DNA of 44,367 nt from Mizuhopecten yessoensis (GCF_002113885.1 NW_018407210.1:160926-205292); one strand, 5' to 3'; shown: positions 1,040-29,712, counted from the first letter of the stretch. The notes: generated from the sequence alone by a model not told the origin. Translations and numbers: made by a program.

Positions 1040-1915
1040 GTCAACTTGGAATTTTGGATAGGTGCAAAATGTAAGAAAACTAGGTGATAACCTTAAAGGG
1101 AACACTTGTACTCTGTATGGAAGTCAATCGCTGCAGCCAGTTTTGAAAAAAGTAAAAAAGGAAGCCATCTTGGAATTTCAGATTGGCACGGAAAGTGATA
1201 TCACTTGTTTGGGATGTTTGTTCAAGTTTCATGTCAATCCCTGCAGCCATTGCAGAGAAGAAGTCAAAAATGTCTGAGCCAACCACAAGCCATAACAGAC
1301 ATCTATTTTCAGATTGGCGCAAAAGGTATTAACACTTGGTTAGGACCACATAAGGAACATTTGTAACAAGTTTCCAGGCAATTGCTGCCGCCATTCTTGA
1401 AGTTGTATATGTCTCTTCAAATCAGAGGGCAAGGTGTACCAACTAGAAGCCAGGGAAGCTGTCATGAATTTTTTATATTGGCACAAAAACTAACAACACT
1501 TGGTTGAACCCACACACACACATTTGTACTAAGTTTGGAGTCAATCATCGAAGCTGTTTTGAAAGAAAATAAAACTTTCTCAGCCAATCAGAGACCAAGG
1601 CCAATCTTAAATTCTCAGCCAATCAGAGACCAAGGCCAATCTTAAATTCTCAGCCAATCAGAGACCAAGGCCAATCTTAAATTTTGAATCAAAAAGAAAA
1701 GTATGAATGCTTGGTGGTGACATTCCAGGAAATGTTTCTATTGAGTTTGGAGTCAATCACTGAAATTATTCTTGAGAAGTTAAAAATATCTAGAGGCCAT
1801 GCTGGCCATCTTTGATTTGTGGATTGGCACAAAAAGTAACAACACTTGATCACCCTAAACAGGAACAATTCTGTATCAAGTTTGGAGTCAGTCAATAATG
1901 TTGCTCTCAAGAAGT
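1040..1915. repeat. Degenerate higher-order tandem repeat, ~185-190 bp unit (motifs ttggcacaaaaagtaacaacacttg / ggaacatttgta.aagtttggagtcaatca / gaagtcaaaaatgt), ~4.5 copies
   Basis: The same blocks recur at ~1190, 1300-1400, 1480-1560, 1700-1770 and 1810-1900. Confidence 0.7.
1578..1684. repeat. 35-bp tandem repeat (ttctcagccaatcagagaccaaggccaatcttaaa) x3, nested in the 185-bp repeat
   Basis: Three near-identical consecutive copies. Confidence 0.9.
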
Positions 1916-7014: not shown

Positions 7015-7600
7015 ATCTCTGTTACATAGGTGCCCAAGGTGGGGCCTCTGTTACATACTGTAGGTGTCCAAGGTGGGGCCTCTGTTACATACTGTAGGTG
7101 TCCAAGGTGGGGCCTCTGTTACATACTGTAGGTGTCCAAGGTGCCCCGGGGCCTCTGTTACATACTGTAAGTGTCCAAGGTGGGGCCTCTGTTACATACT
7201 GTAGGTGTCCAAGGTGGGGTCTCTGTTACATACTGTAGGTGTCCAAGGTGGGGCCTCTGTTACATATTGTAGGTGCCCAAGGTGCCCCAGGGCCTCTGTT
7301 ACATACTGTAGGTGTCCAAGGTGGGGCCTCTGTTACATACTGTAGGTGCCAAAGGTGCCCCGGGCCTCTGTTACATACTGTAAGTGCCCAAGGTGGGGCC
7401 TCTGTTACATACTGTAGGTGCCCAAGGTGCCCCAGGGCCTCTGTTACATACTGTAGGTGCCAAAGGTGCCCCGGGGCCTCTGTTACATACTGTAGGTGCC
7501 CAAGGTGCCCGGGCCTCTGTTACATACTGTAGGTGCCCAAGGTGCCCGGGGCCTCTGTTACATACTGTAGGTGCCCAAGGTGGGGCCTCTGGTGTACTAG
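7015..7600. repeat. 34-bp (38-bp variant) satellite (ctctgttacatactgtaggtgtccaaggtggggc), ~16 copies
   Basis: Regular period; the Gly/Pro-rich ORFs on both strands are artefacts. Confidence 0.95.
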
Positions 7601-7934: not shown

Positions 7935-8855
7935 GAAACATTAAAGTTGTCACAACCTCAGAAGTGTTACATTACCCGGTAAAACTTTTATAACCCCTGC
8001 TTACAACCTCAGAAGTGTTACATTGTCCGGTAAAACTTTTATTACCCGTGCTTACAACCTCAGAAGTGTTGCATTACCCGGAAAAACTTTTATAACCCGC
8101 GCTTACACCCTCAGAAGTGTTACATCATCCGGTAAAACTTTTATAACCCGTGCGTACAACCTCAGAAGTGTTGCATTACCCGGAAAAACTTTTATAACCC
8201 GTGCGTACAACCTCAGAAGTGTTGCATTACCCGGAAAAACTTTTATAACCCGCGCTTACACCCTCAGAAGTGTTACATTGTCCGGTAAAACTTTTATAAC
8301 CCGTGCTTACAACCTCAGAAGTGTTACATTACCGGGTAAAACTTGTATAACCCGTGCTTACAACTTCAGAAGTGTTACATTATCCGGTAAAACTTTTATA
8401 ACCCGTGCTTACAGCCTCAGAAGTGTTACATTACCCGGTAAAACTTTTATATCCCGTGCTTACAACCTCAGAAGTGTTACATTACCGGGTAAAACTTATA
8501 TAACCCGTGCTTACAACTTCAGAAGTGTTACATTACCGGGTAAAACTTATATAACCCGTGCTTACAACTTCAGAAGTGTTACATTATCTGGTAAAACTTT
8601 TATAACCCGTGCTTACAACTTCAGAAGTGTTACATTATCCGGTAAAACTTTTATAAGCCGTGCTTACAACCTCAGAAGTGTTACATTACCCGGTAAAACT
8701 TTTATATCCCGTGCTTACAACCTCAGAAGTGTTACATTATCCGGTAAAACTTTTATAACCTGTGCTTACAACTTCAGAAGTGTTACATTATCTGGTAAAA
8801 CTTTTATTACCCGTGCTTACAACCACAGAACTATTAAGCTTGTTCAAAACTGGTC
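7935..8855. repeat. 51-bp satellite (ccggtaaaacttttataacccgtgcttacaacctcagaagtgttacattac), ~18 copies
   Basis: A period of 51 (= 17 codons) explains the 292-aa ORF at 8023..8901 as an in-frame repeat artefact. Confidence 0.9.
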
Positions 8856-9106: not shown

Positions 9107-9716
9107 AGCTATAAGCTAAAACAAAGAACTGCTATAATTAGCTAAAACAAAGAACTGCTATAAGCTAGAACAAAGAACTGCTATAAGCTAAAACAAAGAA
9201 CTGCTATAAGCTAAAACAAAGAACTGCTATAAGCTAAAACAAGGAACTGCTATTAGCTAAAACAAAGAACTACTATAAGCTAAAACAGAGAACTGCTATA
9301 AGCTAAAACAGAGAACTACTTTAAGCTAAAACAAAGACCTGCTATAAGCTAAAACAAGGAACTGCTATAAGCTAAAACAAAGAACTGTTATATAAGCTAA
9401 AACAGAGAACTGCTTTAAGCTAAAACAAAGAACTGCTAGAAGCTAAAACAAAGAACTGCTAGAAGCTAAAACAGAGAACTACTTTAAGCTAAAACAAAGA
9501 ACTGCTATAAGCTAAAACAAATAACTGCTATAATTAGCTAAAACAAAGAACTGCTAAATTAGCTAAAACAAAGAACTGCTATAAGCTAAAATAAAGAACT
9601 GCTATAAGCTAAAACAAAGAACTGCTATAATTAGCTAAAACAAAGAACTGCTATAATTAGCTTAAACAAAGAACTGCTATAAGCTAAAACAAGGAACTGC
9701 TATAAGCTAAAAACAC
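9107..9716. repeat. 23-bp microsatellite-like array (gctaaaacaaagaactgctataa), ~26 copies, with occasional 26-bp variants
   Basis: Regular period. Confidence 0.95.
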
Positions 9717-9930: not shown

Positions 9931-10246
9931 CTACCAACCATTGAAGTAGAACCTGTTAAACTTGACCTCAAAGGATTTTATGTTTTCCCAAACTGAACCC
10001 AAATATCCAGATAGTTGAAATATTTTGCTTGGACCAAGCATGAAATATTTTTCTTAATCATGATAGTTTACAAATAAAGTTGAGCAGGATTCAGGGTAGC
10101 ATATTTCATTTTTAACCTTTTCCTTGAAAAAACAATAATAAAACTGACATGGTACTATGGACCAGGAGTACCTAATACATGTATCTATTGTTTGATTGAC
10201 AGCCAGCAATAAGTGACACAGATCTCTGTTGTATGAGTACTATGAA

Positions 10247-10690
10247 CTAGTAGAACCTACCTGACAAAGATCCTGTTCCGTAGACAACCAGGCGTTTTTG
10301 ATACAATTGGCTGTTGTGTCTGTAATGTGTACTAGTAGAACCTATCTGACAAAGATCCTGTTCCGTAGACAACCAGGCGTTGTTGATACAGTTGGCTGTT
10401 GTGTCTGTAATGTGTACTAGTAGAACCTATCTGACAAAGATCCTGTTCCGTAGACAACCAGGCGTTGTTGATACAGTTGGCTGTTGTGTCTGTAATGTGT
10501 ACTAGTAGAACCTATCTGACAAAGATCCTGTTCCGTAGACAACCAGGCGTTGTTGATACAGTTGGCTGTTGTGTCTGTAATGTGTACTAGTAGAACCTAT
10601 CTGACAAAGATCCTGTTCCGTAGACAACCAGGCGTTGTTGATACAGTTGGCTGTTGTGTCTGTAATGTGTACTAGTAGAACCTACCTGAC
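10247..10690. repeat. 85-bp tandem repeat, 5+ copies, duplicating the 3' end of PARP4 exon 10686..10844 plus its donor
   Basis: Copies start at 10247, 10331, 10416, 10501, 10586 and 10671. On the minus strand each copy reads ..aacgcctggttgtctacggaacaggatctttgtcag(a/g)taggttctactag. Confidence 0.9.
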
Positions 10691-10844
10691 AAAGATCCTG
10701 TTCTGTAGACAACCAGGCATTGTTGACACTGCTGATGGCCACCTTGTTGTTGTGTGGAAGAGTGGAGTAGAACTCATTGAGGACAGACTGCTTGTCTTCT
10801 GGTTCACCTCTTAGCTTCATTAACAAAGCTTCAGCCTTCTCAAT
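10686..10844 (-). CDS. PARP4: PARP4-like exon 7: IEKAEALLMKLRGEPEDKQSVLNEFYSTLPHNNKVAISSVNNAWLSTEQDLCQ
   Basis: ttttag acceptor and CAG|GTAGGT donor. Matches human SKAEGILLLVKAALKNGE..EFYRLIPHKG..KKADLCQ. Confidence 0.75.
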
Positions 10845-12534: not shown

Positions 12535-13345
12535 TAATTATTTACTCATCTGTCTCATTGAAAATGAGCTATTTGTATTTATTTACTCATCTGTCTCATT
12601 GAGAATGTGCTATTTGTATTTATTTACCCATCTGTCTCATTGAGATGAGCTATTTGTATTTATTTACTCATCTGTATCATTGAGAATGAGCTATTTGCAT
12701 TTATTTACTCATCTGTCTCATTGAAAATCAGCTATTTGTATTTATTTACTAATCTGTCTCATTGAAAATGAGCTATTTGTATTAATTTAACCATCCGTCT
12801 CATTGAGCATGAGCTATTTGTATTTATTTACACATCTGTCTCATTGAAAATGATCTATTTGTATTTATTTACTCATCTGTCGCATTGAGAATGAGCTATT
12901 TGTTTTTTTTTCCCCGCCTGTCTCATTGAGAATGAGCTTTTTGTTTTTTTTTCCCCGCCTGTCTCATTGAGAATGAGCTTTTTGTTTTTTTTTCCCCGCC
13001 TGTCTCATTGAGAATGAGCTTTTTGTTTTTTTTTCCCCGCCTGTCTCATTGAGAATGAGCTTTTTGTTTTTTTTTCCCCGCCTGTCTCATTGAGAATGAG
13101 CTATTTGTTTTTTTTTCCCCGCCTGTCTCATTGAGAATGAGCTTTTTGTTTTTTTTTCCCCGCCTGTCTCATTGAGAATGAGCTTTTTGTTTTTTTTTCC
13201 CCGCCTGTCTCATTGAGAATGAGCTATTTGTATTTATTTACTCATCTGTCTCATTGAAAATGAGCTATTTGTATTTATTTACTCATGTCTCATTGAGAAT
13301 GAGCTATTTGTATTTATTTACTCATCTGTCTCATTGAGAATGAGC
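12535..13345. repeat. 41-47 bp tandem repeat (tttactcatctgtctcattgagaatgagctatttgtattta and variant tttttttttccccgcctgtctcattgagaatgagctttttg), ~18 copies
   Basis: Period 41 (12541 to 12582 to 12623); a poly-T/CCCCGCC subvariant block at 12890-13200. Confidence 0.95.
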
Positions 13346-13434
13346 TATTTGTATTTTGAACAGATGTTCATCATTGATATATATACTAAATTTACAAAAA
13401 AACACAATGAAGTATTGGTAATTTGATATTGTAC

Positions 13435-13844: not shown

Positions 13845-14710
13845 CCCAAGATATAATAAATTACATGTAACCCTGCCCCGATATAATAAATTACGTGTAA
13901 CTCTGCCCACATATAATAAATTACGTGTAACCCTGCCCAGATATAATAAATTACGTGTATCCCTGCCCAGATATAATAAATTACGTGTAACTCTGCCCAG
14001 ATATAATAAATTACGTGTAACCCTGCCCAGATATTATAAATTACATGTAACCCTGCCCAGATATAATAAATTACGTGTACCCCTGCCCAGATATAATAAA
14101 TTACGTGTAACCCGGCCCAGATATAATAAATTACGTGTAACCCTGCCCAGATATAATAAATTACCTGTAACCCTGCCCAGATATAATAAATTACATGTAA
14201 CTCTGCACGGATACAATAAATTACCTGTAACCCTGCCCGGATACAATAAATTACCTGTAACCCTGCCAAGATATAATAAATTACGTGTAACCCTGCCAAG
14301 ATCTAATAAATTACGTGTAACCCTGCCCAGATATAATAAATTACCTGTAACCCTGCCCAGATATAATAAATTACGTGTAACTCTGCCCGGATACAATAAA
14401 TTACCTGTACCCCTGCCCAGATATAATAAATTACATGTAACTCTGCACGGATACAATAAATTACCTGTAACCCTGCCCAGATATAATAAATTACATGTAA
14501 CTCTGCCCGGATACAATAAATTACCTGTAACCCTGCCCGGATACAATAAATTACCTGTAACCCTGCCCAGATATAATAAATTACATGTACCCCTGCCAAG
14601 ATATAATAAATTATGTGTAACCCTGCCCAGATATAATAAATTGTGTGTAACCCTGCCCAGATATAATAAAGTACATGTAACCCTGCCCAGATATAATAAA
14701 TTACATGTTA
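13845..14710. repeat. 30-bp satellite (ataataaattacgtgtaaccctgcccagat), ~29 copies
   Basis: Period 30; this produces the long minus-strand ORFs at 13754..14599. Confidence 0.95.
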
Positions 14711-14773
14711 CCCTGTTTCAAAGCAGATTCTGCAATGCTGGATGTAAACAAGTGATCTTTCTAGCGTTCTCAC

Positions 14774-17577: not shown

Positions 17578-18377
17578 CCAGGAAGAGCACCACTTTGACA
17601 TTGTTTCACTGTATGTTCCTTATACATTTCTATTGTTGCTATGGTACAATTTAAGAACCATCGTTAAAAATCAAGCTTCTTAAGCGCGAACTGCAATTTT
17701 AGTTTCATTGTTATACTCTGGTACCAACGTCGAGTGCACTGTGGTGAGAGTTACCCAAGAAAACTTGGATTGGTCTTGGACTCGTCTCTGCCACAAAGTG
17801 CGAGAGGAAATCTAAGCATCAGACATGATCAGTCGTGATCATAAATTTGATTTGTGTCCATGCATGGATAGTCCTGCACAATGTTAACGTAAATGGTGTT
17901 GTCAATGTGCAAATAACATATTAAAGCCAAAGCCATACCTGTAACATTTTTTAGTCACACTTGTCAGCCGCCCCAAAACATTGACAATGCGCATGCGTCA
18001 TACTTCTTCCTTATTCTATTTTTAGAAATGACACGGTGATTCCCCCATGTACAGGGGCTAGTGACAATTACCGCTTATTAAAGCAGCGGATCAGTATTAA
18101 AATATATGAAAAATCGTACAAATAGTGAGTAATTTCTTAAAGTACATGTATACAAATTCATTATTGTTGTATATATATATATTCCGGATATCAGGAATAA
18201 GAATAAGAATCAATATTGAAGTTAGGCTTCGCACCGTTATCTTGAGATATTTATTTTTCAGAACCCTGTGACACAAAATAAGCTATGACACATGCTACGT
18301 ACGTGTATGAGAACACATATTTGAAACCAGGAGCACATGACTCAATATGTGTACGCGTTTAAATGTTGTAGTCGATA

Positions 18378-18381
18378 ATAG
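18378..18381. other. Target-site duplication ATAG (left copy; the right copy is at 25978-25981)
   Basis: The same 4-mer immediately abuts both LTR outer ends. Confidence 0.7.
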
Positions 18382-18562
18382 TGTGGTGTTTGTTGACGTT
18401 CTGTAAGCGTGCGAATGACTGTGAGTGAAGCATGTGAGTGACCTCGAATTGTTCATGCATGTGTTTTGTTCCAAGATAAAAAGTACCCAAGCTGAGATAG
18501 CTGTCCAGTGTTCTATATTTGTGAAGCGTATGTGTGCCGACTGTACTGGTACGAATACAACA
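18382..18562 (+). repeat. 5' LTR (181 bp, tgtggtg...tacaaca)
   Basis: Identical to 25797..25977. The upstream and downstream flanks differ between the two copies. Confidence 0.9.
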
Positions 18563-18563
18563 A

Positions 18564-18581
18564 TGGCGTCACGAGCATTCC
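18564..18581 (+). promoter_or_regulatory. Primer-binding site TGGCGTCACGAGCATTCC, 1 nt after the 5' LTR
   Basis: TGG.. complementary to a tRNA 3' end ..GGAAUGCUCGUGACGCCA. Which tRNA is not determined; it is possibly Arg-like. Confidence 0.6.
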
Positions 18582-19319
18582 CGAGTCTGTTCGCGGAGGT
18601 CATGGATACGCTAGAATCCGAGGAGAATTTCTAGTGGGATTAATACAAGAGACGTAGAATCCCGGGTAGAGGGTGCGCGCCATCTTTGATTGTCTTTTGT
18701 GTGATACACGTGTTTTGTGTTTCACGTTGTCCCAATGTTTATGTTTTGTGTTTAGAGTTGTATCCTGGGTAGAGGGAGCAATTTATTCACAAATTCATTC
18801 GATAGTTGACCCGTGTAGAAGGCCAACTACTGTCTGATACCCTTGCGTGTTTTTAAATAATAAAACAAAAACCAAAAACGAAACAAACGGAAACGGAACG
18901 GTTATCTTAGGACAATAAAAAAATAAAATATTTAGACAACATTTTATTCGTGGTCACGTTGGTTAGGTGCTCTGGTGGCGCTGTACCAATGGTAACTGAT
19001 GTTTGATTAATTTAGTTTCAAGTGTATTCAGTGAGGTAGGTGTTCTGTTGACGCCAGGCTGCTCTGAATATCTATATATATATTTATTAATTTTTTTTTG
19101 CTCGCTGTGGTAGGTGTTCTGTTTGACGCTAACCCTCGAGTATTATTTATATTAAAACCACAGCTAGGGTGTCGGTTGTTTTTCTCTTACTGTTCTAATA
19201 TGCAGTGTGGTGGGTGGTAATTACCGCTACCCCTGTTTAATAGAAATAAATTTTGTAAAAGGATTTGGGTATATTTTTTTTTTTTTTTTCTCTTGTTGTT
19301 TCTGTGTTAACAGATCTAG

Positions 19320-20114
19320 ATGAACAAGCGGTATGCAGGGGTACTGATCGCAGATTCAAGAGCAAATAATTTTCAAAGATTTGGTCATCCAGAGGATTTC
19401 AACATCAAATTTATAATTCAGAGAGGCGCACAAATTCAGGACCTGGTGGCATTATCAATTCCAATCGTTCGGACATTTGAACCATCAAAAACTTTAATAA
19501 TAAAAGTTGCTGCTGGCATTAATGATTTGTTAAAATTGGAACGGGAGCCAGATGGGAAAATTCTAGTACCGTCAGACAGGTCACCGGACAATATTATTGA
19601 AGAACTTTCAGAATTTAGAACACGTGTACAGGTAGTTAGACCATCAAGCCGAGTTAGTTTCATCACCATCCCTCCTGCTTCGTTAAAAGACTTTCAACTT
19701 AATAAATCCTCCAAACCAATTAACCAAAATCTGGTAACAAAATTACAAGAACAACACAATAAAACTGTGTTGGAGGTAAATTCTAGAATTCACCATTTAA
19801 ATAACCAGACAGTGCCAACGGGTTGGACAGTTAAGTGGGCAGATACCATTGTTCACAAACACAAGAAAAGGAGAGGCCGTGCACGGAAAGTGATTACCGC
19901 TTACCGGTATTCCTTTGAACAGTATTACGATGGCTTACATGCCAAATCTGATGTAAAGAAAGAGTGGTACAAACAGGTGGTTTCTGGAATTCGAGGGGAT
20001 ATTACCAAATTGGAAAAACCAGGAAGTGAGATTCGAATTGTCACCACAGAATCTTCAGAAGAGGACACTCCGGTAGACACTGACGATAAAAGTTGGAAGA
20101 GACTTAAACGGTAA
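19320..20114 (+). CDS. ORF0 (264 aa) in the retrotransposon leader: SGNH/GDSL-hydrolase-like (esterase) protein
   Basis: Block I VLIADSRAN (Ser13), block II RGAQ (Gly), block III AAGINDL (GxND), block V YDGLHAKSD (DGxH). Basic KHKKRRGRARK stretch. Confidence 0.7.
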   Translation: MNKRYAGVLIADSRANNFQRFGHPEDFNIKFIIQRGAQIQDLVALSIPIVRTFEPSKTLIIKVAAGINDLLKLEREPDGKILVPSDRSPDNIIEELSEFRTRVQVVRPSSRVSFITIPPASLKDFQLNKSSKPINQNLVTKLQEQHNKTVLEVNSRIHHLNNQTVPTGWTVKWADTIVHKHKKRRGRARKVITAYRYSFEQYYDGLHAKSDVKKEWYKQVVSGIRGDITKLEKPGSEIRIVTTESSEEDTPVDTDDKSWKRLKR

Positions 20115-20129
20115 TTGTAATACGGCAGC

Positions 20130-20230
20130 GGGTTGGTGATCTGTTGTCGCCTTATCCCCTGCACCGTAGAACTCTTAAACGATAAGTTGAGGTTGTGGGT
20201 TGGTGATCTGTTGTCGCCTTATCCCCTGCC
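20130..20230 (+). repeat. Two copies of a 33-bp direct repeat (gggttggtgatctgttgtcgccttatcccctgc) at 20130-20162 and 20198-20230, immediately upstream of the gag ATG
   Basis: Exact duplication separated by 35 bp. Confidence 0.9.
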
Positions 20231-20233
20231 ACA

Positions 20234-21637
20234 ATGACTCGTATAAATTACTGTGAGAGACAAGACCTACTACTATTGCCGGGTATTGGAGAGCGTCTGG
20301 CGGACAAAATTCTACAAGTCCGTGAAGTAATGGGGGACATTACTAAAGAGGTTCTGTTGGCCATTCCATACCTGAGGCCCACAGAGACCATGTTAAACCA
20401 AATAGACTTTACACCGCGATATGAACGGTTTACTGACATGGGTGAGAACTTGACGGGTGAGCATCACACCTACAAAATGGACCCACCACCAAAGGTTCAA
20501 CATCCTTCACCACCACGACTACAAGTTCAAAATCCAGGACCGTATTTTGACAATTATGGGTATCCTGGCAGCCGCCAGAGAGAACATCGACAGCAGTACC
20601 AGTACACTAATTACCGAGACCCATACGAACAGGAATACCACGGTCAGCCCCGTCAACCACAGTTCAACTTTCCACCTCCAAGGTACAATCCGGGGAATCC
20701 GCCGCCAAGACGTGGACGGGTGGTAGCTCCCAAGACGTTACGCTATGATGGAAACTCCGATTGGAAAGCTTTTTGCACAAAGTTTACTAGATTCACTGAG
20801 GCGGAGAATCTTACTGCTCGTGAATGTCGGGATAACCTTTGCTGGATACTGGAGGGCAAAGCTAGTGAGTTTTTCACTATGCTCTTGGATCGTGATTCAA
20901 CGATGGAATTTTTCGATATCATGTCAAAAATGGAACGCCGTTTTGGATTCAAGGAGCTGGCCGAGACTACCCAAGCACGCCTTCGTAACGCCCGACAGTA
21001 CCCTGACGAGAAGCTAGCAGATTGGGCTGATCGGGTGTTATCTTTAGCTACCAGAGCCTATCAGGATCTGCCCGATGAGTTTATGTATAAACAAGCGATC
21101 TCCACAATTTGCCAGGGAGCAGCAGATAAAGAAGCAGGCCAATATGTTTCTAACCTAAGATTGGGATCTATTGAGGAAGTGGTGGACAAGATGAGACTTT
21201 TTCAACATACAAGAAAGTCTATCTATGGTCGCGACCGTCCTAGACCTTCGCCTGTCGAAGAACTAATCATACAAGAGGAAGAAGGTACTAGTGTCAGCAG
21301 GACATTCCAGCGTAGAGTCCCAAATTCTCAGTCCTCATTCCAGCCATCTTCAGCAACAAACCAAAGGCTGTCAGCCCTAGAAGACAAGGTATCGGACATG
21401 CAAAAATCCCTTAAACAAATTTTGGAGGCTGTTCGTGTCCCAGAGGAAAGGATCAAAAGGAATGTGGTTTGTTATGGTTGTGGCCAGACAGGCCATTTTA
21501 AGTCGAACTGTCCTAATGCTGAAGATAATAAATCTGTGAAACTCCTGGATGCGGCTGAAAAGACTGAAGGTGAAGAAGTAGTCCCTGGATCTGAAGAAGT
21601 TGAGGACTCGTTAAACACCGACAGGTCGGCCAACTAG
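20234..21637 (+). CDS. gag: gag (467 aa): N-terminal HhH motif (LLLPGIGERLADKIL), Gln/Pro/Tyr-rich linker, capsid-like region, CCHC zinc knuckle (CYGCGQTGHFKSNC)
   Basis: CX2CX4HX4C motif at 21469..21510. Sits upstream of pol within the LTR element. Confidence 0.85.
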   Translation: MTRINYCERQDLLLLPGIGERLADKILQVREVMGDITKEVLLAIPYLRPTETMLNQIDFTPRYERFTDMGENLTGEHHTYKMDPPPKVQHPSPPRLQVQNPGPYFDNYGYPGSRQREHRQQYQYTNYRDPYEQEYHGQPRQPQFNFPPPRYNPGNPPPRRGRVVAPKTLRYDGNSDWKAFCTKFTRFTEAENLTARECRDNLCWILEGKASEFFTMLLDRDSTMEFFDIMSKMERRFGFKELAETTQARLRNARQYPDEKLADWADRVLSLATRAYQDLPDEFMYKQAISTICQGAADKEAGQYVSNLRLGSIEEVVDKMRLFQHTRKSIYGRDRPRPSPVEELIIQEEEGTSVSRTFQRRVPNSQSSFQPSSATNQRLSALEDKVSDMQKSLKQILEAVRVPEERIKRNVVCYGCGQTGHFKSNCPNAEDNKSVKLLDAAEKTEGEEVVPGSEEVEDSLNTDRSAN

Positions 21638-24600
21638 ACCTAAGCCCGACCTTAGATGTTAAAAATGGTCTTCATCCTACACGGTCAACAATTACACCAG
21701 ATGACCTTATCAGTGAGGTAATGACTGATAACACCACCGAATCAACCCGTGTTGAACTTGATAATATTACCCGATTACGGTCAACATCCATGTTTCAAGT
21801 GCCTGTTATCGTGGGAGGTTTTCATACAAGAGCAGTGGTGGATACCGGTGCTGAAGTATCAATCATATCGGATGAGGTATACAAAAACCTTGTTGAGCCA
21901 CCCTCGATATTGAAACATGTGACACTTAATGCAGCAGGCAGAGATCAACCAATTGAGAGCTATATTGTTGGACCCATCGAACTAGATATAGGATCTAAGA
22001 GTTACAAGGTTAGCATTTATGTTGGACCAATTGAAGATGATATCTTGCTGGGTCTGGACTTTCTGAAGCCCAATAATGCTCAACTTGACATTTCAGGGGA
22101 TACTCTTACCCTGGGTATTGGTGGAGAGAAAATTTCAGTGAACACAGGAAAAGAATTTTTACCTGCTTCCGAAGGCAAGGTATATGTACAGAAACGGACT
22201 GTAGTACCACCGAACAGTGTAGCAAGAGTGTGTTGTCGAATTTCCGGAAAGGTAGGCAGTTCTAGTCTAATTGTGGAGCCTACAGTAGAAAATGGACTAC
22301 TAATTCCGAGATCATTGTATGACACAGCCTCGCAGATCAGGTTGTACTGTGTGAATGTCACGGACAGAAATATAATTCTGAAAAGGAAAACGGAAATTGC
22401 GATAGTCAATGAGGCAAGAGAAATTATTGCGAATGTTGAAAGTCATGCGGATCCCATATTTGTGGAGACATTACGCTGTGGCGAGGAAACACCGGACATT
22501 GCGCCTTCGCATGTACAGAGTCTCATTGATGGCGCGAAAGAACAGTTGTCGGTTGAGGAGTTAAGTCAATTTGCTCAACTTATTAAGGATAATTCCGATG
22601 TTTTTGCGAAAAATGACTTTGACCTGGGACATTTTAGTGCTATCAAACACAATATTGATACAGGTACGGCACGGCCGATAAAGCAACGTTTTCGCAGAAC
22701 GCCAGCATGTTTTGCCAACGAAGAGGATTTGCATCTAAAGAAGATGCTAGATTCTGGAGTTATCGAATCCTCTACATCCGAGTGGGCGTCAGCACCAGTG
22801 CTGATCCGTAAACGTGACGGCGGAGTGCGCTGGTGCATAGATTATCGGGGACTGAACTCGGTAACTACTAAAGACGTGTTTCCATTACCGTTAATAGAAG
22901 AATGCCTCGACGCATTGACCGATAACGTGTGGTTTTCGAAACTAGATGCCAACTCGGCTTATTGGCAAGTCCTTGTCAATGAATCGGACAGACATAAGAC
23001 TGCCTTCAGTACAAAACACGGATTGTTTCAGTTTGTCAAAATGGGATTCGGACTTTGTAACGCCCCAGCAACTTATGCCAGAGTAATGAACCTGGTTCTT
23101 CGTGGATTAACATGGAACATTGTTCTTGCCTTCCTGGACGATGTGTTGGTTCTTGGGAAGACCTTCGATGAGCATCTCCAAAATCTAGCAGAAGTCTTTG
23201 AGCGCATCAGGGCGTATCAACTGAAACTCAAACCCGCTAAGTGCGAATTCTTTAAAAAGAAGGTTGACTTCTTAGGGCGAACAGTTAGTGAAAGTGGCAT
23301 TGAAACCAGTGGCAAACACATCGAAAAGATGAAGGAGTGGCCAACACCAACATCATCTAAGGATGTTGAGCAATTCTTGGGGTTTGCCAACTACCATCGC
23401 TCATTTATTCCCGAATATGCCAAAATTGCAGCTCCTCTGTACCAATTGACAGGAAAGAATGACTTTCGGTGGGATGAGGAACAGGAAAAAGCATTTTCCA
23501 GCTTAAAATCTTCCCTGAGTTCTCCACCTGTTTTGGGAATACCGAATAACAGCGATATGTTTGTGCTCGACACAGACGCATCTGACTTTGCTATTGGTGG
23601 TGAGTTGTGCCAAATTCAAGAAGGCAAGGAAAGAACAATAGCTTATGCTAGTTATTCCCTGACATCAGAACAGCGTCGCTATTGTACAACAAGAAAAGAA
23701 CTTTTGGCAGTAGTTCGCTTTACCAGACAGTTTCGCCATTATCTGCTTGGTCGCAAGTTTGTGGTGAGAACTGATCACAACAGTTTGGTTTGGTTGCTCA
23801 ACTTCAAAAATCCCCAAGGACAACTGGCGAGATGGCTTGAAGAGTTAAGCCAGTATGATCTAACTATTGTACACCGAAAAGGAAAAGACCATCAAAATGC
23901 TGACAGTCTCTCCCGGAGTCTACCAAAAGACCAGTGCGGAAACTTGAAACATGGGCAAGATCCTACCACGTTACCATGCGGAGGATGTGCCTATTGTACT
24001 CGGGCTCATGAACATTGGCATCAGTTTATCTCTGATGTGGACGAGGCGGTCTCTCTAAGTAACATACCCTGCGTACAAAAAGTAACCCAGTCTGACAATA
24101 CTTTCGCCGTGGAAGGAAGTCTATATAGCGAGAATTTGACCATAGAAGTGTCTGCTTTTGGAATAAATATCCTCACTAGATCTGAAAGGAGTGATATTGA
24201 AGACATGAACGTCAACGCCTTGGATATTCAATTCTCGGGTTACTCGGCAAAGGAAATCCGGACTGCTCAGGAGCAAGATCCAGAGTTATCTATACTGCTA
24301 GAGTGGGTAAAGAATAAGAAAGAGGTGGACGAAGGAGAACTGTTTGGATCCAGTAGAGCCATAAAGTATTACTGGATTAACCGTGAGTTATACTTCCTGG
24401 ATGAGTCTGGTATATTGTGGAGGAAGGATCTAGAAGACACTAGCAAAACTCAATCCTTGGTTATACCTCCCAGTATGAGAGAAGACGCTATTTCTTTGTG
24501 CCATGACATCCCGGCTAGCGCTCATCAGGGAATCAACCGAACAGAATCCATGGTTCGCCAGAGGTTCCATTGGTATGGCTTGCCTCGCGACGTTCAAAAG

Positions 24601-25746
24601 TTCGTGAAATCCTGTGTCATCTGCAACACCAAGAAAAAAGCCAGTCGAAAGGCTCGATGCCCGTTGACTCTTTTCCAATCAGGGGAACCCATGGAAAGAG
24701 TTCATCTTGACTTCTTGGGCCCACTACCCATAACAGCAACAGGAAATGAACACATATTAGTTATGGTAGACCAGTTTACCAAATGGGTTGAATGTGTTCC
24801 CTTACCTTCGCAGACCGCCGCGACAACCGCAAAAGCAGCTGTAAACGAATTCTTCGCGAGATTTGGATATCCGTTCCAAATTCATACAGACCAAGGTAGA
24901 AACTTTGAAAGTCGTCTGTTTAAAGCTTTGTGTGAAGTTACGCAAATTCATAAAACTCGTACAACGGCTTATAGACCTTCTGCCAATGGACAAGTGGAGA
25001 GGTATAATCGCACCATCATGAACGCAGTTCGATGCTTCATAAACTCTCAAAGTGAATGGGACATCTATTTACCACAGCTAGCTGGCGCGCTAAGGTGTTC
25101 CGTAAACCGCCAAACTGGACATACCGCCAACAAGTTAATGCTGGGCCGGGAGACCAATCAGCCTGCAGATCTCTTGTATGCCGCTCCATCGAACAAGAAG
25201 GCGAAGGACTCTCGCGACTCTGAAAGTTATGTGGACAATTTGGTAGATGCAATTCAGCGTGCCCATGAAACCGCCAGAAAAACCCTTGCCACAACGCAGA
25301 GGAGAATGAAACGTGATTACGATGTTCGCGTTTACACTACCGAGTTCATTGAAGGGGATGTGGTCTACGTCTTCGACAATGCAACGCCTAAGGGACAAAA
25401 TCCCAAGTTAAAGGCCGTTTGGAAAGGTCCTGGACTCATAGTCAAAAAGTACACGCCGTACGTCTATGGAGTACAGATGGGGAAGACGCGACAAGTCATT
25501 AATCACGATCGATTAAAAATGTGTAATGACCGTAAGCGACCCCAATGGATAATCGATCTCCAGGAGCACCGAGCGGAACCGGTAGAGGAAACCCACTGTG
25601 TCTGCCATCAAACGGATGATGGGACCATCATGATCCAGTGTGACTTTTGTTTTGTGTGGTTCCATGGACGTTGTGTGGGCTTAAATGTAGAGGAAGCCGA
25701 ACAGCTGGAACTTTATTGCTGTACTACGTGTGAACAATCTGTATAA
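21604..25746 (+). CDS. pol: pol (frame open from 21604; first ATG at 21721): protease (VDTGAEVS), RT (FSKLDANSAYWQV; FLDD), RNase H (VLDTDASDFAIGG), integrase (HHCC + DDE + GPY/F), C-terminal PHD-type zinc finger
   Basis: Domain order PR-RT-RH-IN means Ty3/gypsy. It is in the -1 frame relative to gag with a 34-nt overlap. Confidence 0.9.
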   Translation, partial: GLVKHRQVGQLDLSPTLDVKNGLHPTRSTITPDDLISEVMTDNTTESTRVELDNITRLRSTSMFQVPVIVGGFHTRAVVDTGAEVSIISDEVYKNLVEPPSILKHVTLNAAGRDQPIESYIVGPIELDIGSKSYKVSIYVGPIEDDILLGLDFLKPNNAQLDISGDTLTLGIGGEKISVNTGKEFLPASEGKVYVQKRTVVPPNSVARVCCRISGKVGSSSLIVEPTVENGLLIPRSLYDTASQIRLYCVNVTDRNIILKRKTEIAIVNEAREIIANVESHADPIFVETLRCGEETPDIAPSHVQSLIDGAKEQLSVEELSQFAQLIKDNSDVFAKNDFDLGHFSAIKHNIDTGTARPIKQRFRRTPACFANEEDLHLKKMLDSGVIESSTSEWASAPVLIRKRDGGVRWCIDYRGLNSVTTKDVFPLPLIEECLDALTDNVWFSKLDANSAYWQVLVNESDRHKTAFSTKHGLFQFVKMGFGLCNAPATYARVMNLVLRGLTWNIVLAFLDDVLVLGKTFDEHLQNLAEVFERIRAYQLKLKPAKCEFFKKKVDFLGRTVSESGIETSGKHIEKMKEWPTPTSSKDVEQFLGFANYHRSFIPEYAKIAAPLYQLTGKNDFRWDEEQEKAFSSLKSSLSSPPVLGIPNNSDMFVLDTDASDFAIGGELCQIQEGKERTIAYASYSLTSEQRRYCTTRKELLAVVRFTRQFRHYLLGRKFVVRTDHNSLVWLLNFKNPQGQLARWLEELSQYDLTIVHRKGKDHQNADSLSRSLPKDQCGNLKHGQDPTTLPCGGCAYCTRAHEHWHQFISDVDEAVSLSNIPCVQKVTQSDNTFAVEGSLYSENLTIEVSAFGINILTRSERSDIEDMNVNALDIQFSGYSAKEIRTAQEQDPELSILLEWVKNKKEVDEGELFGSSRAIKYYWINRELYFLDESGILWRKDLEDTSKTQSLVIPPSMREDAISLCHDIPASAHQGINRTESMVRQRFHWYGLPRDVQKFVKSCVICNTKKKASRKARCPLTLFQSGEPMERVHLDFLGPLPITATGNEHILVMVDQFTKWVECVPLPSQTAATTAKAAVNEFFARFGYPFQIHTDQGRNFESRLFKALCEVTQIHKTRTTAYRPSANGQVERYNRTIMNAVRCFINSQSEWDIYLPQLAGALRCSVNRQTGHTANKLMLGRETNQPADLLYAAPSNKKAKDSRDSESYVDNLVDAIQRAHETARKTLATTQRRMKRDYDVRVYTTEFIEGDVVYVFDNATPKGQNPKLKAVWKGPGLIVKKYTPYVYGVQMGKTRQVINHDRLKMCNDRKRPQWIIDLQEHRAEPVEETHCVCHQTDDGTIMIQCDFCFVWFHGRCVGLNVEEAEQLELYCCTTCEQSV

Positions 25747-25782: not shown

Positions 25783-25796
25783 AAAAGAGGGAGGAA
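25783..25796 (+). promoter_or_regulatory. Polypurine tract AAAAGAGGGAGGAA, immediately 5' of the 3' LTR
   Basis: Purine run abutting the LTR start TGTGG. Confidence 0.75.
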
Positions 25797-25977
25797 TGTG
25801 GTGTTTGTTGACGTTCTGTAAGCGTGCGAATGACTGTGAGTGAAGCATGTGAGTGACCTCGAATTGTTCATGCATGTGTTTTGTTCCAAGATAAAAAGTA
25901 CCCAAGCTGAGATAGCTGTCCAGTGTTCTATATTTGTGAAGCGTATGTGTGCCGACTGTACTGGTACGAATACAACA
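25797..25977 (+). repeat. 3' LTR (181 bp)
   Basis: Identical to the 5' LTR. Confidence 0.9.
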
Positions 25978-26799
25978 ATAGGTAGCTCGCCGGAGGTAGC
26001 ACAGGAGTTTGACAGTATATCAATATAATAGTCTAGATGAATGGGGTATTTTTTCATCTGGACTTTTGTATTATATTGATATAATTTCGAACATAACAGA
26101 AAAGAATTACTCACAATTGCTGCAATGCCCTTCAAAGTCAATATATATTATACTTAATCATCAGTATTGATCGATGAAAAGCTGATGAAGATGAAGTCAG
26201 TCATTTCAGACCAGCTGTTATAATCACTGAAATCAGTCATGTAGTTTTTGAGGAATTTTGTTTCAGTCCTCGTTAATTTTAATTTGGTACTTTTATACCA
26301 TTGGACCCCTGTCCCACAGCTGTCTGTGTTGTTCCCTATATATATACCTATACTATACAATTGCCTTGCTAGCTCCACTTAATTTCGGCTTGGGTTGTTT
26401 TGCCAGGACACTTCCGCTGACCAGGTATAATAGCTCATTCGGTCAGAATGAAAGTATACGATGTAAGTCCATGGTTTAAATCCAAGTTTAGCCTGAATGT
26501 TTAAATGTACTCGGTCAGAACACTCCTGTTGATTACAAGTAAATTTTGTTTGTTTCATCATGATTATTTCTCAAAAAAGTCCTGCAAGATAGGATTTTCT
26601 TTTCAGAAATGATATATCAAAGCTTCACATGATGCCTGAAAAGACAGTTTTTTTAAGTACTTAAGTACAGTTTTGGCAGAGAACTCTTTGGAAGTACCAA
26701 AACATACCGTGTCCTGTGTAATAACCAACAAACCAAGCCAGCAAGCTAAGCTGACCCAAATCAATTAACCTTGAATAACTACAAATTCATTCCTGTTTG

Positions 26800-27240: not shown

Positions 27241-27794
27241 CAAACTGATGGTTCTTAAGAAGACATGTAAATGAAAAGCTGAAGGACAACATATCATGGT
27301 GGCAGCCACACCACAAAATCAACTTGCATGAGACCCGTTGGGCTGAAAATGTTTCTCTCTTCCCGGTGTGTTTAAATCAATGTTGATTGTTCATTTCACA
27401 CATGATACATGTACATTTTTGTTTTACCATACAGCAATTTCAACAACAGAACAAGTAACTGAGTTCAAGATTTATTCAACAATTTCATGAATTTATAATA
27501 CATAAGTTACTACATACACAAATGTATGTATGATTACAAAATATATAGTAGTGGCCTACACAGGTGAAATGAATTATTTAATATTGCAAAAGTTATTTCT
27601 CTTGAAACAGTCAAATTAGATGTTTCAGAAACCAATTTGCTCTCATTACTTTGTACAGCTGTAACAGAAATTCAAAGGTGAAGTTTGATAGAATTCATAA
27701 ATAACTGAGGAAGAAATTTTCTAATCATTAAAATGAAAAAAAGTGTGAATTTGTTTAATGCACCAATCTTCATGTTGTATACATTTACACAAGT

Positions 27795-28705
27795 CTTTGG
27801 AGCAGTATACCAGTAACTAGTTACCACTAGGACAGATTGTGTCTCCCTCTGTCACCCTTCACACACATCCATGGAGCAGTATACCAGTAACTAATTACCA
27901 CTAGGACAGATTGTGTCACACTCTGTCACACTTCACACACATCCATAGAGCAGTATACCAGTAACTAATTACCACTAGGACAGATTGTGTCACACTCTGT
28001 CACACTTCACACACATCCATGGTGCAGTATACCAGTAACTAGTTACCACTAGGACAGAGTGTTTTACACTCTGTCACACTTCACACACATCCATGGAGCA
28101 GTATGCCAGTAACTAGTTACCACTAGGACAGATTGTGTCACCCTCTGTCACACTTCACACACATCCATGGATCAGTATACAAGTAACTAGTTACCACTAG
28201 GACAGATTGTGTCACCCTCTGTCACACTTCACACACATCCATGGATCAGTATACCAGTAACTAGTTACCACTAGGACAGATCGTGTCACACTCTGCCACA
28301 CGTCACACACATCCATGGAGCAGTATACCAGTAACTAATTACCACTAGGACAGATTGTGTCACACTCTGTCACACTTCACACACATCCATGGTGCAGTAT
28401 ACCAGTAACTAGTTACCACTAGGACAGAGTGAGTCACACTCTGTCACACTTCACACACATCCATGGTGCAGTATACCAGTAACTAGTTACCACTAGGACA
28501 GATCGTGTCACACTCTGCCACACGTCACACACATCCATGGAGCAGTATACCAGTAACTAATTACCACTAGGACAGATTGTGTCACACTCTGTCACACTTC
28601 ACACACATCCATGGTGCAGTATACCAGTAACTAGTTACCACTAGGACAGATTGTGTCACACTCTGTCACACTTCACACACATCCGTGGAGCAGTTTACAA
28701 ACACA
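27795..28705. repeat. 74-bp satellite (ccatggagcagtataccagtaactagttaccactaggacagattgtgtcacactctgtcacacttcacacacat), ~12 copies
   Basis: Period 74 (27871 to 27945 to 28019). Confidence 0.95.
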
Positions 28706-29712
28706 CATCACCCTAACAAATTGAATCACATTTTCTATCAGACTTTACCAGTATCATATACATAGGAAACTCATATGACTATTTTTATATTAAGGAAAGT
28801 GGAAAATTTCAACTATGATTTCCCCTTCAGGTATATATACTGTACATGAACATACAATATTTTTAAGGTTTCACAATTATATCAATAATATTATTGTCTC
28901 TAAAACATCAATTTCCAATTTGTTCTTTGTATGTTGCACATGAATCTATAAACATATTTCTGTATCAATGTACAAAGAAGCAAAAGTATTGTAATCTTTC
29001 TTTACTACATCATTCTATTGTCTCCCTTTGACCACTGCTCATTGGTGGGTTGTTAAAAACACCCTGCTCAGATCACAAAACTTAACAGAGCACTATTAGT
29101 GCTATTTTGCAGTTTCTCATATAAATCAAGGGTTTGAAATGAATGAAAATGATAAAGGAAATGGTTTTCTCCTTTCACATATGTGTTACATCTTTCTGAA
29201 AGCACTAACAATGACTCAAACTAACGGGCGCAAAAGAGTTCCTGTATGGCATATGCATTGATAGGCCAGGAAAATACCAATGTTAGCATATTTGTAACAA
29301 TTAATATACAGCTCCCTGGTTTTCCAAAATGTTTTCACATTTTACAAGGAAAACACTTTTAAAACTAAATTGTAACAGAAAATACAATTGAAAGTTGCAT
29401 GTCACAGGTTTTCTCAACTACTTCTACTCAACATTGACAACCACAATCCTCTCCATCCAGAACAATGTTACAAAGCACCGTCTGAGCCAGTGGATTGCCG
29501 GAGCTTACTTATGTTAAGCCTCATCTCTTACTAGGTTAACCTTGGTCAGCAATCTTCATGTTTAATGGCATCAGGAGGGCAGCCATCCTTTTGAGCTCTG
29601 ACTAAGGGCGGGTAATTCTTTTACAGTTAAAACTCTTTATATTCAAAGGCGTCCATTAAAATGTCAAGTCTATAGTTGCTTGTATCACAATGAAGTTGAT
29701 GACTTATGGTGA

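What the first reader, a model, noticed from the sequence alone, without database searches (positions are those of the whole stretch)
20267..20311. Canonical helix-hairpin-helix (HhH) DNA-binding motif at the gag N-terminus
Gag residues 12-26 read LLLPGIGERLADKIL. This matches the HhH consensus h-x-x-h-P-G-I-G-x-x-x-A-x-x-I of ComEA, RuvA and Pol-beta/lambda-type non-specific DNA binders. Retroelement Gag proteins normally bind nucleic acid through CCHC knuckles, and one is also present here at 21469..21510. An added N-terminal HhH module is unusual. It might tether capsid or pre-integration complexes to DNA.
Basis: partly seen in the sequence, partly recalled or inferred. Interest (0 to 1): 0.6.

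Follow-up and report, generated by a model that had tools for sequence, protein, structure and literature searches.

The report
DNA-binding-type domain on retrotransposon Gag
The capsid protein (Gag) of an intact, recently inserted Ty3/gypsy retrotransposon starts with a conserved 60-residue domain of the kind bacteria use to grip incoming DNA, which probably lets the particle hold on to host DNA or chromatin; I found no description of this on a Gag in the papers I could search.

Summary
Gag (20234..21637, 467 aa) begins with LLLLPGIGERLADKIL (aa 12-27). The motif is one part of a 60-residue ComEA/EEPD1-type double helix-hairpin-helix (HhH) domain, aa 1-60. The first hairpin is canonical and the second is degenerate.

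It is not a chance match:
- 14 of 15 Gag N-termini from relatives 26-61% identical hit Pfam HHH_3.
- The family profile hits EEPD1 (E 9e-14) and ComEA (E 2.7e-11) in the PDB.
- The AlphaFold model (pLDDT >90 over aa 1-60) superposes on ComEA (TM 0.69).
- The domain is as conserved as the capsid core, while the linker after it is not conserved.
- Of two relatives lacking the domain that I checked in DNA, one is a frameshift-split gene model and the other is cut off by its contig.

Function is inferred. The domain sits N-terminal to capsid, so it should face outward. It most likely tethers particles or pre-integration complexes to DNA or chromatin, as MLV p12 does.

Caveats: the domain is not basic, and it lacks several lysines that ComEA needs.

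I found no paper on this. I class it as a new variant of a known kind, of moderate interest. The element also carries an SGNH-esterase ORF 5' of gag and a PHD finger on Pol; two relatives examined carry a TatD DNase ORF.

The parts
18378..18381 (+). Target-site duplication ATAG, 5' copy
   Evidence: The same 4 bases flank both LTRs.
18382..18562 (+). 5' LTR, 181 bp, TG...CA ends
   Evidence: 100% identical to 25797-25977.
18564..18585 (+). Putative primer-binding site TGGCGTCACGAGC...
   Evidence: It starts with TGG one base after the LTR. The assignment is by position only.
19320..20114 (+). ORF0, 264 aa: SGNH/GDSL-hydrolase-fold protein inside the element, 5' of gag
20130..20162 (+). Conserved 33-nt hairpin motif, copy A
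   Evidence: Exact repeat of 20197-20229. About 80% conserved just 5' of the gag AUG in L001 and L002. Predicted to form a hairpin.
20197..20229 (+). Conserved 33-nt hairpin motif, copy B, ending 4 nt before the gag AUG
20234..21637 (+). gag ORF, 467 aa
20234..20413 (+). Gag aa 1-60: ComEA/EEPD1-type double HhH domain (the finding)
   Evidence: Pfam HHH_3. Profile hits to EEPD1 and ComEA. AF2 pLDDT above 90 with four helices. Foldseek best hit is ComEA. Conservation is 0.31-0.51.
20267..20314 (+). First, canonical HhH motif LLLLPGIGERLADKIL (aa 12-27); the PGIG hairpin is at 20279-20290
20363..20398 (+). Second, degenerate hairpin and helix, IPYLRPTETMLN (aa 44-55), where ComEA has V-x-G-I-G-x-K
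   Evidence: The model shows helices 38-43 and 51-55. The ComEA alignment covers 65 columns. This stretch varies across the family.
20414..20728 (+). Gag aa 61-165: P/R/Y/Q-rich low-complexity linker, not conserved
   Evidence: Mean pairwise identity is 0.14-0.20. Its length varies from about 100 to over 400 aa in relatives.
20729..21253 (+). Gag aa 166-340: capsid core (Retrotrans_gag / PNMA-like)
   Evidence: Pfam. Identity is 0.36-0.70.
21470..21511 (+). CCHC zinc knuckle
   Evidence: Pfam zf-CCHC at 23.6 bits, above its cutoff.
21604..25746 (+). pol reading frame, -1 relative to gag and open from 21604; first ATG at 21721; PR-RT-RNaseH-IN
25594..25731 (+). PHD finger at the C-terminus of Pol/integrase
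   Evidence: Pfam PHD at 28.5 bits, above the 24-bit cutoff. Also found in relatives L001, L003 and L005-L007.
25783..25796 (+). Polypurine tract AAAAGAGGGAGGAA
   Evidence: It abuts the 3' LTR.
25797..25977 (+). 3' LTR
25978..25981 (+). Target-site duplication ATAG, 3' copy

Best explanation
The first 60 residues of Gag are a folded, selectively maintained ComEA/EEPD1-type double helix-hairpin-helix domain. A non-conserved, roughly 100-residue P/Q/Y-rich flexible linker joins it to the capsid core. In Ty3 and retroviral Gag lattices, sequence N-terminal to capsid lies on the outer face and the zinc-knuckle end lies inside with the genome (established knowledge). Many copies of the HhH domain should therefore be displayed on flexible tethers on the outside of the particle. 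The most likely role is sequence-independent, avidity-driven binding to double-stranded DNA, that is host chromatin. This would hold the particle or the capsid-containing pre-integration complex on chromosomes for nuclear retention and integration. The job would be the one MLV p12 and the foamy-virus Gag chromatin-binding sequence do through nucleosomes. The PHD finger on integrase would then add histone-tail reading at the integration step.

Shown: the fold, the homology, the conservation, the position in Gag, and the intactness and youth of the element. Inferred: DNA binding, outward display, and chromatin tethering.
For: Fold and homology: Pfam HHH_3 matches 14 of 15 family members. The family profile hits EEPD1 at E 9e-14 and ComEA at E 2.7e-11. 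The AF2 model has pLDDT above 90, and its best PDB match is the ComEA DNA-binding domain with TM 0.69.

Selection: mean pairwise identity is 0.31-0.51 in aa 1-60 and 0.14-0.20 in the linker, against 0.36-0.70 in capsid. The signature residues P16, G17, G19, I26 and R30 are invariant or nearly so. A basic residue sits two positions after the hairpin in 12 of 15 sequences.

Presence: all relatives with an intact N-terminus have the domain. One 'HhH-less' model has the HhH ORF directly upstream.

The element is functional-looking: identical LTRs, a TSD, a PBS, a PPT and intact ORFs.

The ComEA HhH domain binds dsDNA through backbone amides plus lysines, and it needs oligomerisation for cooperative binding (PMC9747964). 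A Gag lattice would supply that multivalency.

Precedent for a Gag segment N-terminal to CA tethering the capsid-containing PIC to chromatin: MLV p12, whose defects can be rescued by heterologous chromatin-binding sequences (PMC6021111, abstract seen); PFV Gag (PMC6042332).

A chromatin-reader PHD finger on Pol sits in the same elements.
Against: There is no experimental data. The domain's net charge is -3 to +1 across the family, so it is not basic. The second hairpin has lost G-I-G, and it lacks the equivalents of ComEA-Gs K195, K199 and K201. The position equivalent to K166, whose B. subtilis counterpart K164 is critical for transformation, is hydrophobic here (L22) and across the family (mapping). 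A single domain may therefore bind DNA weakly or not at all. The outward orientation is extrapolated from other Gag lattices and was not modelled here. Processing of Gag by the protease is unknown.
Confidence: 0.45

Rival explanations
1. The HhH domain binds nucleic acid of the element itself. It would bind the newly made double-stranded cDNA, or the genomic RNA, and help packaging, reverse transcription or protection of the cDNA. It would not contact host chromatin.
For: HhH domains bind DNA without sequence preference (PMC9747964). The same Gag already has a nucleic-acid-binding CCHC knuckle, so nucleic-acid handling is part of its job. In two relatives examined (L003, L005) the domain travels with a TatD DNase ORF, which suggests DNA processing is important in this clade.
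Against: The domain is at the opposite end of Gag from the knuckle. A long linker N-terminal to capsid separates it from the core. In known Gag lattices that side faces away from the packaged genome (established knowledge, not tested here). HhH motifs are classically dsDNA binders, not RNA binders.
Confidence: 0.2
2. The domain has kept the HhH fold but works as a protein-protein interaction or assembly module. It could mediate Gag-Gag contacts, recruit a host factor, or support nuclear import, and DNA binding would be lost.
For: Net charge is neutral to acidic. The second hairpin is degenerate and lacks the ComEA lysines. (HhH)2 domains of XPF/ERCC1-type proteins are known dimerisation modules (established knowledge). 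XPF and Hef appear among the weaker profile hits.
Against: The residues under the strongest constraint are exactly the DNA-contacting hairpin signature P-G-[IV]-G, plus the following basic residue and R30. This is what retained phosphate-backbone contact would predict. The closest matches are DNA-binding ComEA and EEPD1 domains, not dimerisation-type HhH pairs.
Confidence: 0.2
3. The domain is a passenger: a captured fragment with no present function, or a chance resemblance.
For: On the window sequence alone, both Pfam HhH matches are below the gathering thresholds.
Against: It is conserved across Gags only 26-61% identical in this region, at capsid-like levels, next to an unconserved linker. 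The fold prediction is confident. Profile E-values reach 1e-13. The domain is retained in elements that differ in their accessory ORFs.
Confidence: 0.03

Closest known systems
ComEA DNA-binding domain (bacterial competence protein; Pfam HHH_3, PF12836; PDB 8dss, 2duy)
   Same: The roughly 60-residue architecture is the same: a short N-terminal 'INxxx' strand, HhH1 with L-P-G-I-G, a conserved Arg about 11 residues later, and a second helix-hairpin-helix with no connector helix. It is the best structural match (TM 0.69), and the profile E-value is 2.7e-11.
   Different: ComEA is a periplasmic or membrane-anchored bacterial protein. Here the domain is fused to a eukaryotic retrotransposon capsid protein. 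The second hairpin lacks G-I-G, and the lysines equivalent to K166, K195, K199 and K201 of ComEA-Gs are missing. The domain is not basic.
EEPD1 N-terminal HhH domains (metazoan endonuclease/exonuclease/phosphatase family domain-containing protein 1; PDB 9yi2)
   Same: It is the best sequence-profile hit in the PDB (E 9.1e-14), aligned over profile positions 2-60, the whole domain. It is a metazoan protein with the domain at the N-terminus. Its hairpins also deviate from G-I-G.
   Different: EEPD1 has two tandem copies fused to an EEP nuclease. Here one copy is fused to Gag. The 60-residue domain is too short to tell whether it was captured from a host EEPD1-like gene or from a bacterial or giant-virus ComEA-like gene.
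MLV p12 and the prototype foamy virus Gag chromatin-binding sequence (functional analogues, not homologues)
   Same: These are Gag-encoded segments outside the capsid core that tether the capsid-containing pre-integration complex to host chromatin. p12 also lies N-terminal to CA (PMC6021111, PMC6042332).
   Different: They are short unstructured peptides that bind nucleosomal histones (the acidic patch). The module here is a folded domain of a DNA-backbone-binding class. The analogy is a hypothesis and was not tested.
Accessory-domain and extra-ORF capture in retroelements (chromodomain integrases; GDSL-esterase and DEDDy-exonuclease ORF3 of bdelloid Vesta/Juno elements; esterase and PHD domains in LINE ORF1)
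   Same: The theme is the same: modular acquisition of chromatin-reading or enzymatic modules. This element and its relatives also carry an SGNH esterase, a PHD finger, or a TatD DNase (PMC5408684; PMC3905857 and PMC4120745 listed).
   Different: None of the papers I could search describes an HhH domain on a Gag. In the bdelloid elements the esterase is 3' of pol, whereas here it is 5' of gag.

Membership tests
HhH / ComEA-like domain (Pfam HHH_3 PF12836, HHH PF00633) | Match to the family HMM at or above the curated gathering score | tested here: inconclusive
   The window sequence scores 22.6-23.0 bits against a cutoff of 27 for HHH_3, and 17 against 24 for HHH. Relatives pass: P0238 scores 34.3 and P0225 scores 36.4, the best E-value in the alignment is 5.6e-11, and 14 of 15 match at E below 0.01.
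HhH / ComEA-like domain (Pfam HHH_3 PF12836, HHH PF00633) | Hairpin signature h-x-x-h-P/x-G-h-G between two helices | tested here: met
   L-L-L-L-P16-G17-I18-G19. P16 and G19 are invariant and G17 is at least 90% conserved across 15 sequences. The flanking helices are at 9-12 and 20-33 in the model.
HhH / ComEA-like domain (Pfam HHH_3 PF12836, HHH PF00633) | Two HhH motifs packed into one compact domain without a connector helix (the ComEA type) | tested here: met
   The model has four helices, 9-12, 20-33, 38-43 and 51-55, at pLDDT above 90. It aligns with ComEA 8dss_B over 65 columns at rmsd 2.6 A. The ComEA architecture is described in PMC9747964. The second hairpin keeps the fold but not the G-h-G sequence.
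HhH / ComEA-like domain (Pfam HHH_3 PF12836, HHH PF00633) | Conserved DNA-contacting lysines (ComEA-Gs K166, K195, K199, K201) | tested here: not met
   The K166 equivalent is L22, hydrophobic in all 15 sequences. The HhH2 lysines have no equivalents. Instead a basic residue sits at position 21 in 12 of 15 sequences.
HhH / ComEA-like domain (Pfam HHH_3 PF12836, HHH PF00633) | Sequence-independent dsDNA binding | not testable with these tools
   This needs EMSA or anisotropy with recombinant protein.
Ty3/gypsy (Metaviridae-type) LTR retrotransposon | LTRs with TG...CA ends, a TSD, a PBS and a PPT | tested here: met
   The LTRs are 181 bp and 100% identical. The TSD is ATAG, a TGG-starting PBS follows the 5' LTR, and a PPT abuts the 3' LTR.
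Ty3/gypsy (Metaviridae-type) LTR retrotransposon | Gag with a capsid core and CCHC; Pol in the order PR-RT-RNaseH-IN | tested here: met
   Pfam finds Retrotrans_gag/PNMA and zf-CCHC in Gag. In Pol it finds gag-asp_proteas 28-116, RVT_1 362-521, RT_RNaseH 611-712, Integrase_H2C2 915-973 and rve 989-1086.
Ty3/gypsy (Metaviridae-type) LTR retrotransposon | Placement in a named gypsy clade by RT phylogeny | not tested
Gag chromatin tether (MLV p12 / PFV CBS type), by function only | Direct binding to nucleosomes or chromatin that is required for integration | not testable with these tools
   This is an analogy based on position in Gag and on domain class. There is no sequence similarity, and none is expected.

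The most novel reading that the evidence does not exclude
A previously undescribed clade of marine-invertebrate Ty3/gypsy elements displays a ComEA-type dsDNA-binding domain on the outside of its capsid and uses it as a direct DNA or chromatin tether. This would be a folded-domain solution to the problem retroviruses solve with the p12 and CBS peptides. The clade also combines it with a PHD-finger integrase and interchangeable accessory enzymes: an SGNH esterase 5' of gag, or a TatD DNase 3' of pol. Such a capsid would bind naked DNA, which could be exploited for delivery tools.
Probability: 0.3. Interest if true: 0.65.

Novelty: new variant of a known kind. Interest (0 to 1): 0.45.

Why it matters
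Little is known about how LTR-retrotransposon particles reach and hold on to chromatin outside a few retroviruses and yeast elements. A folded, conserved DNA-binding-type domain on the outward-facing end of Gag gives a concrete, easily testable candidate for that step. The tests are EMSA, localisation, and mutation of the GIG hairpin.

It also shows that Gag can acquire accessory domains, as integrase and LINE ORF1 are known to do. It marks a clade with an unusually rich accessory toolkit: HhH, PHD, SGNH esterase and TatD DNase.

On the practical side, these Gag fragments are being annotated as bacterial 'helix-hairpin-helix domain-containing proteins' in symbiont MAGs. They encode a CCHC-knuckle Gag most similar to mussel sequences, so they are most likely host retrotransposon contamination.

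Tried and rejected
1. Single-sequence searches of aa 1-80 gave only weak hints: PDB phmmer found ComEA at E 0.055, and the Pfam matches were below threshold. The family profile was needed.

2. The exhaustive representative search with the N-terminal profile returned 33,161 hits, and multi-repeat HhH proteins dominated the top 150. The three I scanned (P0153, P0156, P0160) carry many HHH_3 repeats, two of them with SLBB or T2SSK domains, and look bacterial. The only single-stretch, full-length matches belonged to the same Gag family or were chimeric gene models (Reprolysin and Tpt1 fusions). No second Gag family with the domain could be shown or excluded.

3. The word-indexed search with the profile returned short Gag fragments followed by ComEA proteins, which gave no information on architecture.

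4. An exact-sequence look-up of the window's Gag found nothing, so the host organism is unidentified. The closest relatives come from unnamed sequencing runs and from Mytilus species.

5. I found no LTRs for L003 or L004 within the fetched DNA, so TatD ORF3 is shown to lie inside the element only for L005.

6. The afdb50 fold library was unavailable. BFVD gave only giant-virus ComEA-like proteins and no retroviral Gag.

7. I did not attempt dN/dS on the domain. Close pairs with DNA were lacking and 60 codons are too few. A conservation profile was used instead.

8. Literature searches for HhH on Gag found only an unrelated use of the term for the Cer1 CERV protein.

9. No Rfam family matches anywhere in the window.

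10. I rejected the chance-match reading (see rivals).

11. I considered that the ORF upstream of gag belongs to a different, nested element. I rejected this because relatives L001 and L002 have the same ORF0-gag-pol order and the same intergenic motif.

Full report
**1. What is at the coordinates**

The window holds an ORF at 20234..21637 (+) that encodes a 467-aa Gag. Bases 20267..20311 translate to LLLLPGIGERLADKI, aa 12-26. Pfam finds three features in the same protein:
- a Retrotrans_gag/PNMA-type capsid core at about aa 183-292;
- a CCHC knuckle at aa 412-428 (CYGCGQTGHFKSNC, 21470..21511);
- sub-threshold HhH matches at the N-terminus: HHH_3 at 22.6 bits against a cutoff of 27 (E 1e-4 on aa 1-80), and HHH at 17 bits.

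**2. The surroundings: a complete, young Ty3/gypsy element**

- The 181-bp LTRs at 18382-18562 and 25797-25977 are 100% identical and have TG...CA ends.
- A 4-bp target-site duplication, ATAG, flanks them.
- A TGG-starting primer-binding site lies one base after the 5' LTR.
- A polypurine tract, AAAAGAGGGAGGAA, abuts the 3' LTR.

Between the LTRs lie three intact ORFs:
- ORF0 (19320..20114, 264 aa);
- gag;
- pol (first ATG at 21721, ending at 25746), with PR, RT, RNase H, integrase and a C-terminal PHD finger.

The pol frame is -1 relative to gag and is open from 21604, which gives a 34-nt overlap. I saw no classical slippery heptamer.

**3. Is the HhH more than chance?**

A search with the whole Gag returned 32 relatives. 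Most are from Mytilus species and unnamed assemblies. Two are labelled as bacterial MAG proteins; they have a CCHC-knuckle Gag most similar to mussel sequences, so they are most likely host contamination.

Every relative with an intact N-terminus starts, within a few residues of the Met, with the same module. Fifteen N-termini, 26-61% identical to the window, align without difficulty. P16, G19, I26, R30 and F59 are invariant, and G17 and G34 are at least 90% conserved. The consensus is INxCSxxxLxxLPGIGxKxAxxILxxRxxxGNITxExLxxIxxLxVTxxLxxxIDF.

The supporting results are:
- 14 of 15 N-termini match Pfam HHH_3 (best E 5.6e-11), and 13 of 15 match HHH.
- A profile of the alignment hits solved structures of EEPD1 (9yi2, E 9.1e-14, aligned over positions 2-60), ComEA (8dss at E 2.7e-11; 2duy at 6.4e-7), and then RuvA, PolX, Pol lambda and XPF.
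- An AlphaFold2 model built with this alignment has pLDDT 90-94 over aa 1-60 and helices at 9-12, 20-33, 38-43 and 51-55.
- The model's best PDB match is the ComEA DNA-binding domain (8dss_B, probability 1.00, TMq 0.69, rmsd 2.6 A over 65 columns).
- In the viral structure library only giant-virus ComEA-like proteins match. No retroviral Gag does.

**4. Is it maintained by selection?**

I aligned 11 full-length HhH-bearing Gags and measured mean pairwise identity along the protein:

| Region | Residues | Mean pairwise identity |
|---|---|---|
| HhH domain | 1-60 | 0.31-0.51 |
| P/Q/Y/R-rich linker | 61-160 | 0.14-0.20 |
| Capsid core | 161-340 | 0.36-0.70 |

The linker also varies from about 100 to over 400 residues between relatives. 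The HhH domain is therefore conserved at capsid-like levels next to a freely evolving spacer.

Relatives that seem to lack the domain begin inside the linker or the capsid. I checked two in DNA:
- P0010 is preceded by an ORF encoding MPRVFINNCSIEELMSVPGIGAKVADKILELREAKG..., which overlaps its start by 4 nt. It is a frameshift-split copy.
- P0009 sits on a 2-kb contig that ends inside the linker.

I found no intact family member without the domain.

**5. What it is**

It is a ComEA/EEPD1-type two-HhH domain, not a single motif. The ComEA structure paper describes this type as two HhH motifs joined by a loop rather than a connector helix (PMC9747964). That matches the four-helix model.

The first HhH is canonical. 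The second keeps the fold but reads IPYLRPT where ComEA has V-x-G-I-G-x-K, and it varies within the family.

**6. How it probably works**

The shown steps are the fold, the homology, the conservation, the N-terminal position, and the intactness of the element. The rest is inferred.

From established knowledge of Ty3 and retroviral Gag lattices, sequence N-terminal to capsid faces outward and the knuckle end faces the packaged genome. The HhH domains would then be displayed in many copies on flexible linkers on the particle surface.

ComEA binds dsDNA through backbone amides and a few lysines. It also needs oligomerisation for cooperative binding, and a Gag lattice would supply that multivalency.

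The best-supported reading is sequence-independent tethering of the particle or the capsid-containing pre-integration complex to host DNA or chromatin. MLV p12 also lies N-terminal to CA, binds nucleosomes, and can be replaced by heterologous chromatin-binding sequences (PMC6021111). PFV Gag has a comparable chromatin-binding sequence (PMC6042332). The PHD finger on Pol, shared by relatives, fits an element that invests in chromatin contacts.

**7. Evidence against, and rivals**

- The domain's net charge is -3 to +1 across the family.
- I mapped the ComEA-Gs residues through the HMMER alignments, using chain numbering offset 59. The K166 equivalent is L22, which is hydrophobic in all 15 sequences. 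K166's B. subtilis counterpart, K164, is critical for transformation.
- The HhH2 lysines K195, K199 and K201 have no equivalents.
- A basic residue is instead kept at position 21 in 12 of 15 sequences.

Monomer affinity may therefore be low. I rate the readings as follows:

| Reading | Confidence |
|---|---|
| Outward-facing DNA/chromatin tether | 0.45 |
| Binds the element's own cDNA or RNA | 0.2 |
| Protein-protein or assembly module | 0.2 |
| Functionless passenger or chance match | 0.03 |

**8. Comparison with what is known, and novelty**

Full-text searches for HhH together with Gag, retrotransposon or capsid found only an unrelated use of the term, for the helical-hairpin 'H domain' of Cer1 CERV. 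Surveys of mollusc LTR elements and the bdelloid extra-ORF paper do not mention such a domain.

Databases already auto-annotate some of these proteins with PF12836, and one carries the name 'helix-hairpin-helix domain-containing protein'. The sequences are therefore public, but in the literature I could reach the feature is undescribed.

I class it as a new variant of a known kind, namely accessory-domain capture by retroelements. It is of moderate interest because it makes chromatin tethering by an LTR-retrotransposon Gag directly testable.

**9. Things noticed along the way**

- GDSL-esterase ORFs are published for bdelloid Vesta LTR elements, but there they lie 3' of pol (PMC5408684).
- Two divergent relatives instead carry an ORF3 ending in a full TatD DNase domain (E 6.7e-38 and 7.4e-34). 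In L005 this ORF lies inside 234-bp LTRs that are 99.6% identical. I found no paper on this.
- A 33-nt hairpin-forming motif lies directly 5' of the gag AUG. It is about 80% conserved in an element whose proteins are only 41-47% identical, and it is duplicated in the window.

Noticed in passing
[not shown]
   Followed up: yes
L005 15262-17616; L003 14948-17809: Two divergent HhH-Gag elements carry an ORF3 right after pol whose C-terminus is a complete TatD-related DNase domain (Pfam E 6.7e-38 and 7.4e-34). In L005 it lies inside the LTR pair 8330-8563 / 17908-18141. The roughly 500-700 N-terminal residues have no Pfam match. I found no paper on TatD in LTR retrotransposons.
   Followed up: partly
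window 25594-25731 (Pol aa 1292-1337): A PHD finger sits at the extreme C-terminus of Pol/integrase, in the place where chromoviruses carry a chromodomain. It is shared by relatives L001, L003 (as a separate ORF), L005, L006 and L007. It is probably a histone-tail reader for integration targeting.
   Followed up: partly
window 20130-20162 and 20197-20229; L001 about 993-1024: A 33-nt motif, GGGTTGGTGATCTGTTGTCGCCTTATCCCCTGC, occurs twice, exactly repeated 67 nt apart, between the ORF0 stop and the gag AUG. One copy, about 80% identical, lies at the same place in L001 and L002, whose proteins are only 41-47% identical. It is predicted to form a 6-bp hairpin (GGUGAU/GUCGCC), with a U.G to C-G change in L001. 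Without the duplication, the ORF0-stop to gag-AUG spacing would be 52 nt in both elements. It may be a signal for reinitiation or internal initiation of gag. There is no Rfam match.
   Followed up: partly
window 21604-21637: pol is in the -1 frame relative to gag and is open for 34 nt before the gag stop. The same frame relationship holds in L001. No classical X XXY YYZ slippery site is evident (…TCG TTA AAC ACC…), so how Pol is expressed is unclear.
   Followed up: partly
window 20414-20728 (Gag aa 61-165): The linker between the HhH domain and capsid is P/R/Y/Q/G/N-rich low-complexity sequence. It is not conserved, and it expands to several hundred residues with Q/N/P repeats in relatives such as P0012 and P0021. 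It resembles prion-like or condensate-forming regions.
   Followed up: no
proteins P0003 and P0005: Gag proteins of this family are deposited as proteins of bacterial MAGs. One is a 'hypothetical protein' of Candidatus Thiodiazotropha sp. and the other a 'helix-hairpin-helix domain-containing protein' of Sedimenticola sp. They have a CCHC-knuckle Gag most similar to mussel sequences, so they are most likely host (invertebrate) retrotransposon contamination in symbiont bins.
   Followed up: no
window 1912-3215, 7027-7591, 7952-8830, 9108-9712, 10226-10726, 12535-13356, 13845-14715, 27710-28823: The window outside the element is dominated by long tandem-repeat arrays, for example a 74-bp period at 27710-28823. 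It has no other long ORFs, so the element sits in satellite-rich DNA.
   Followed up: no
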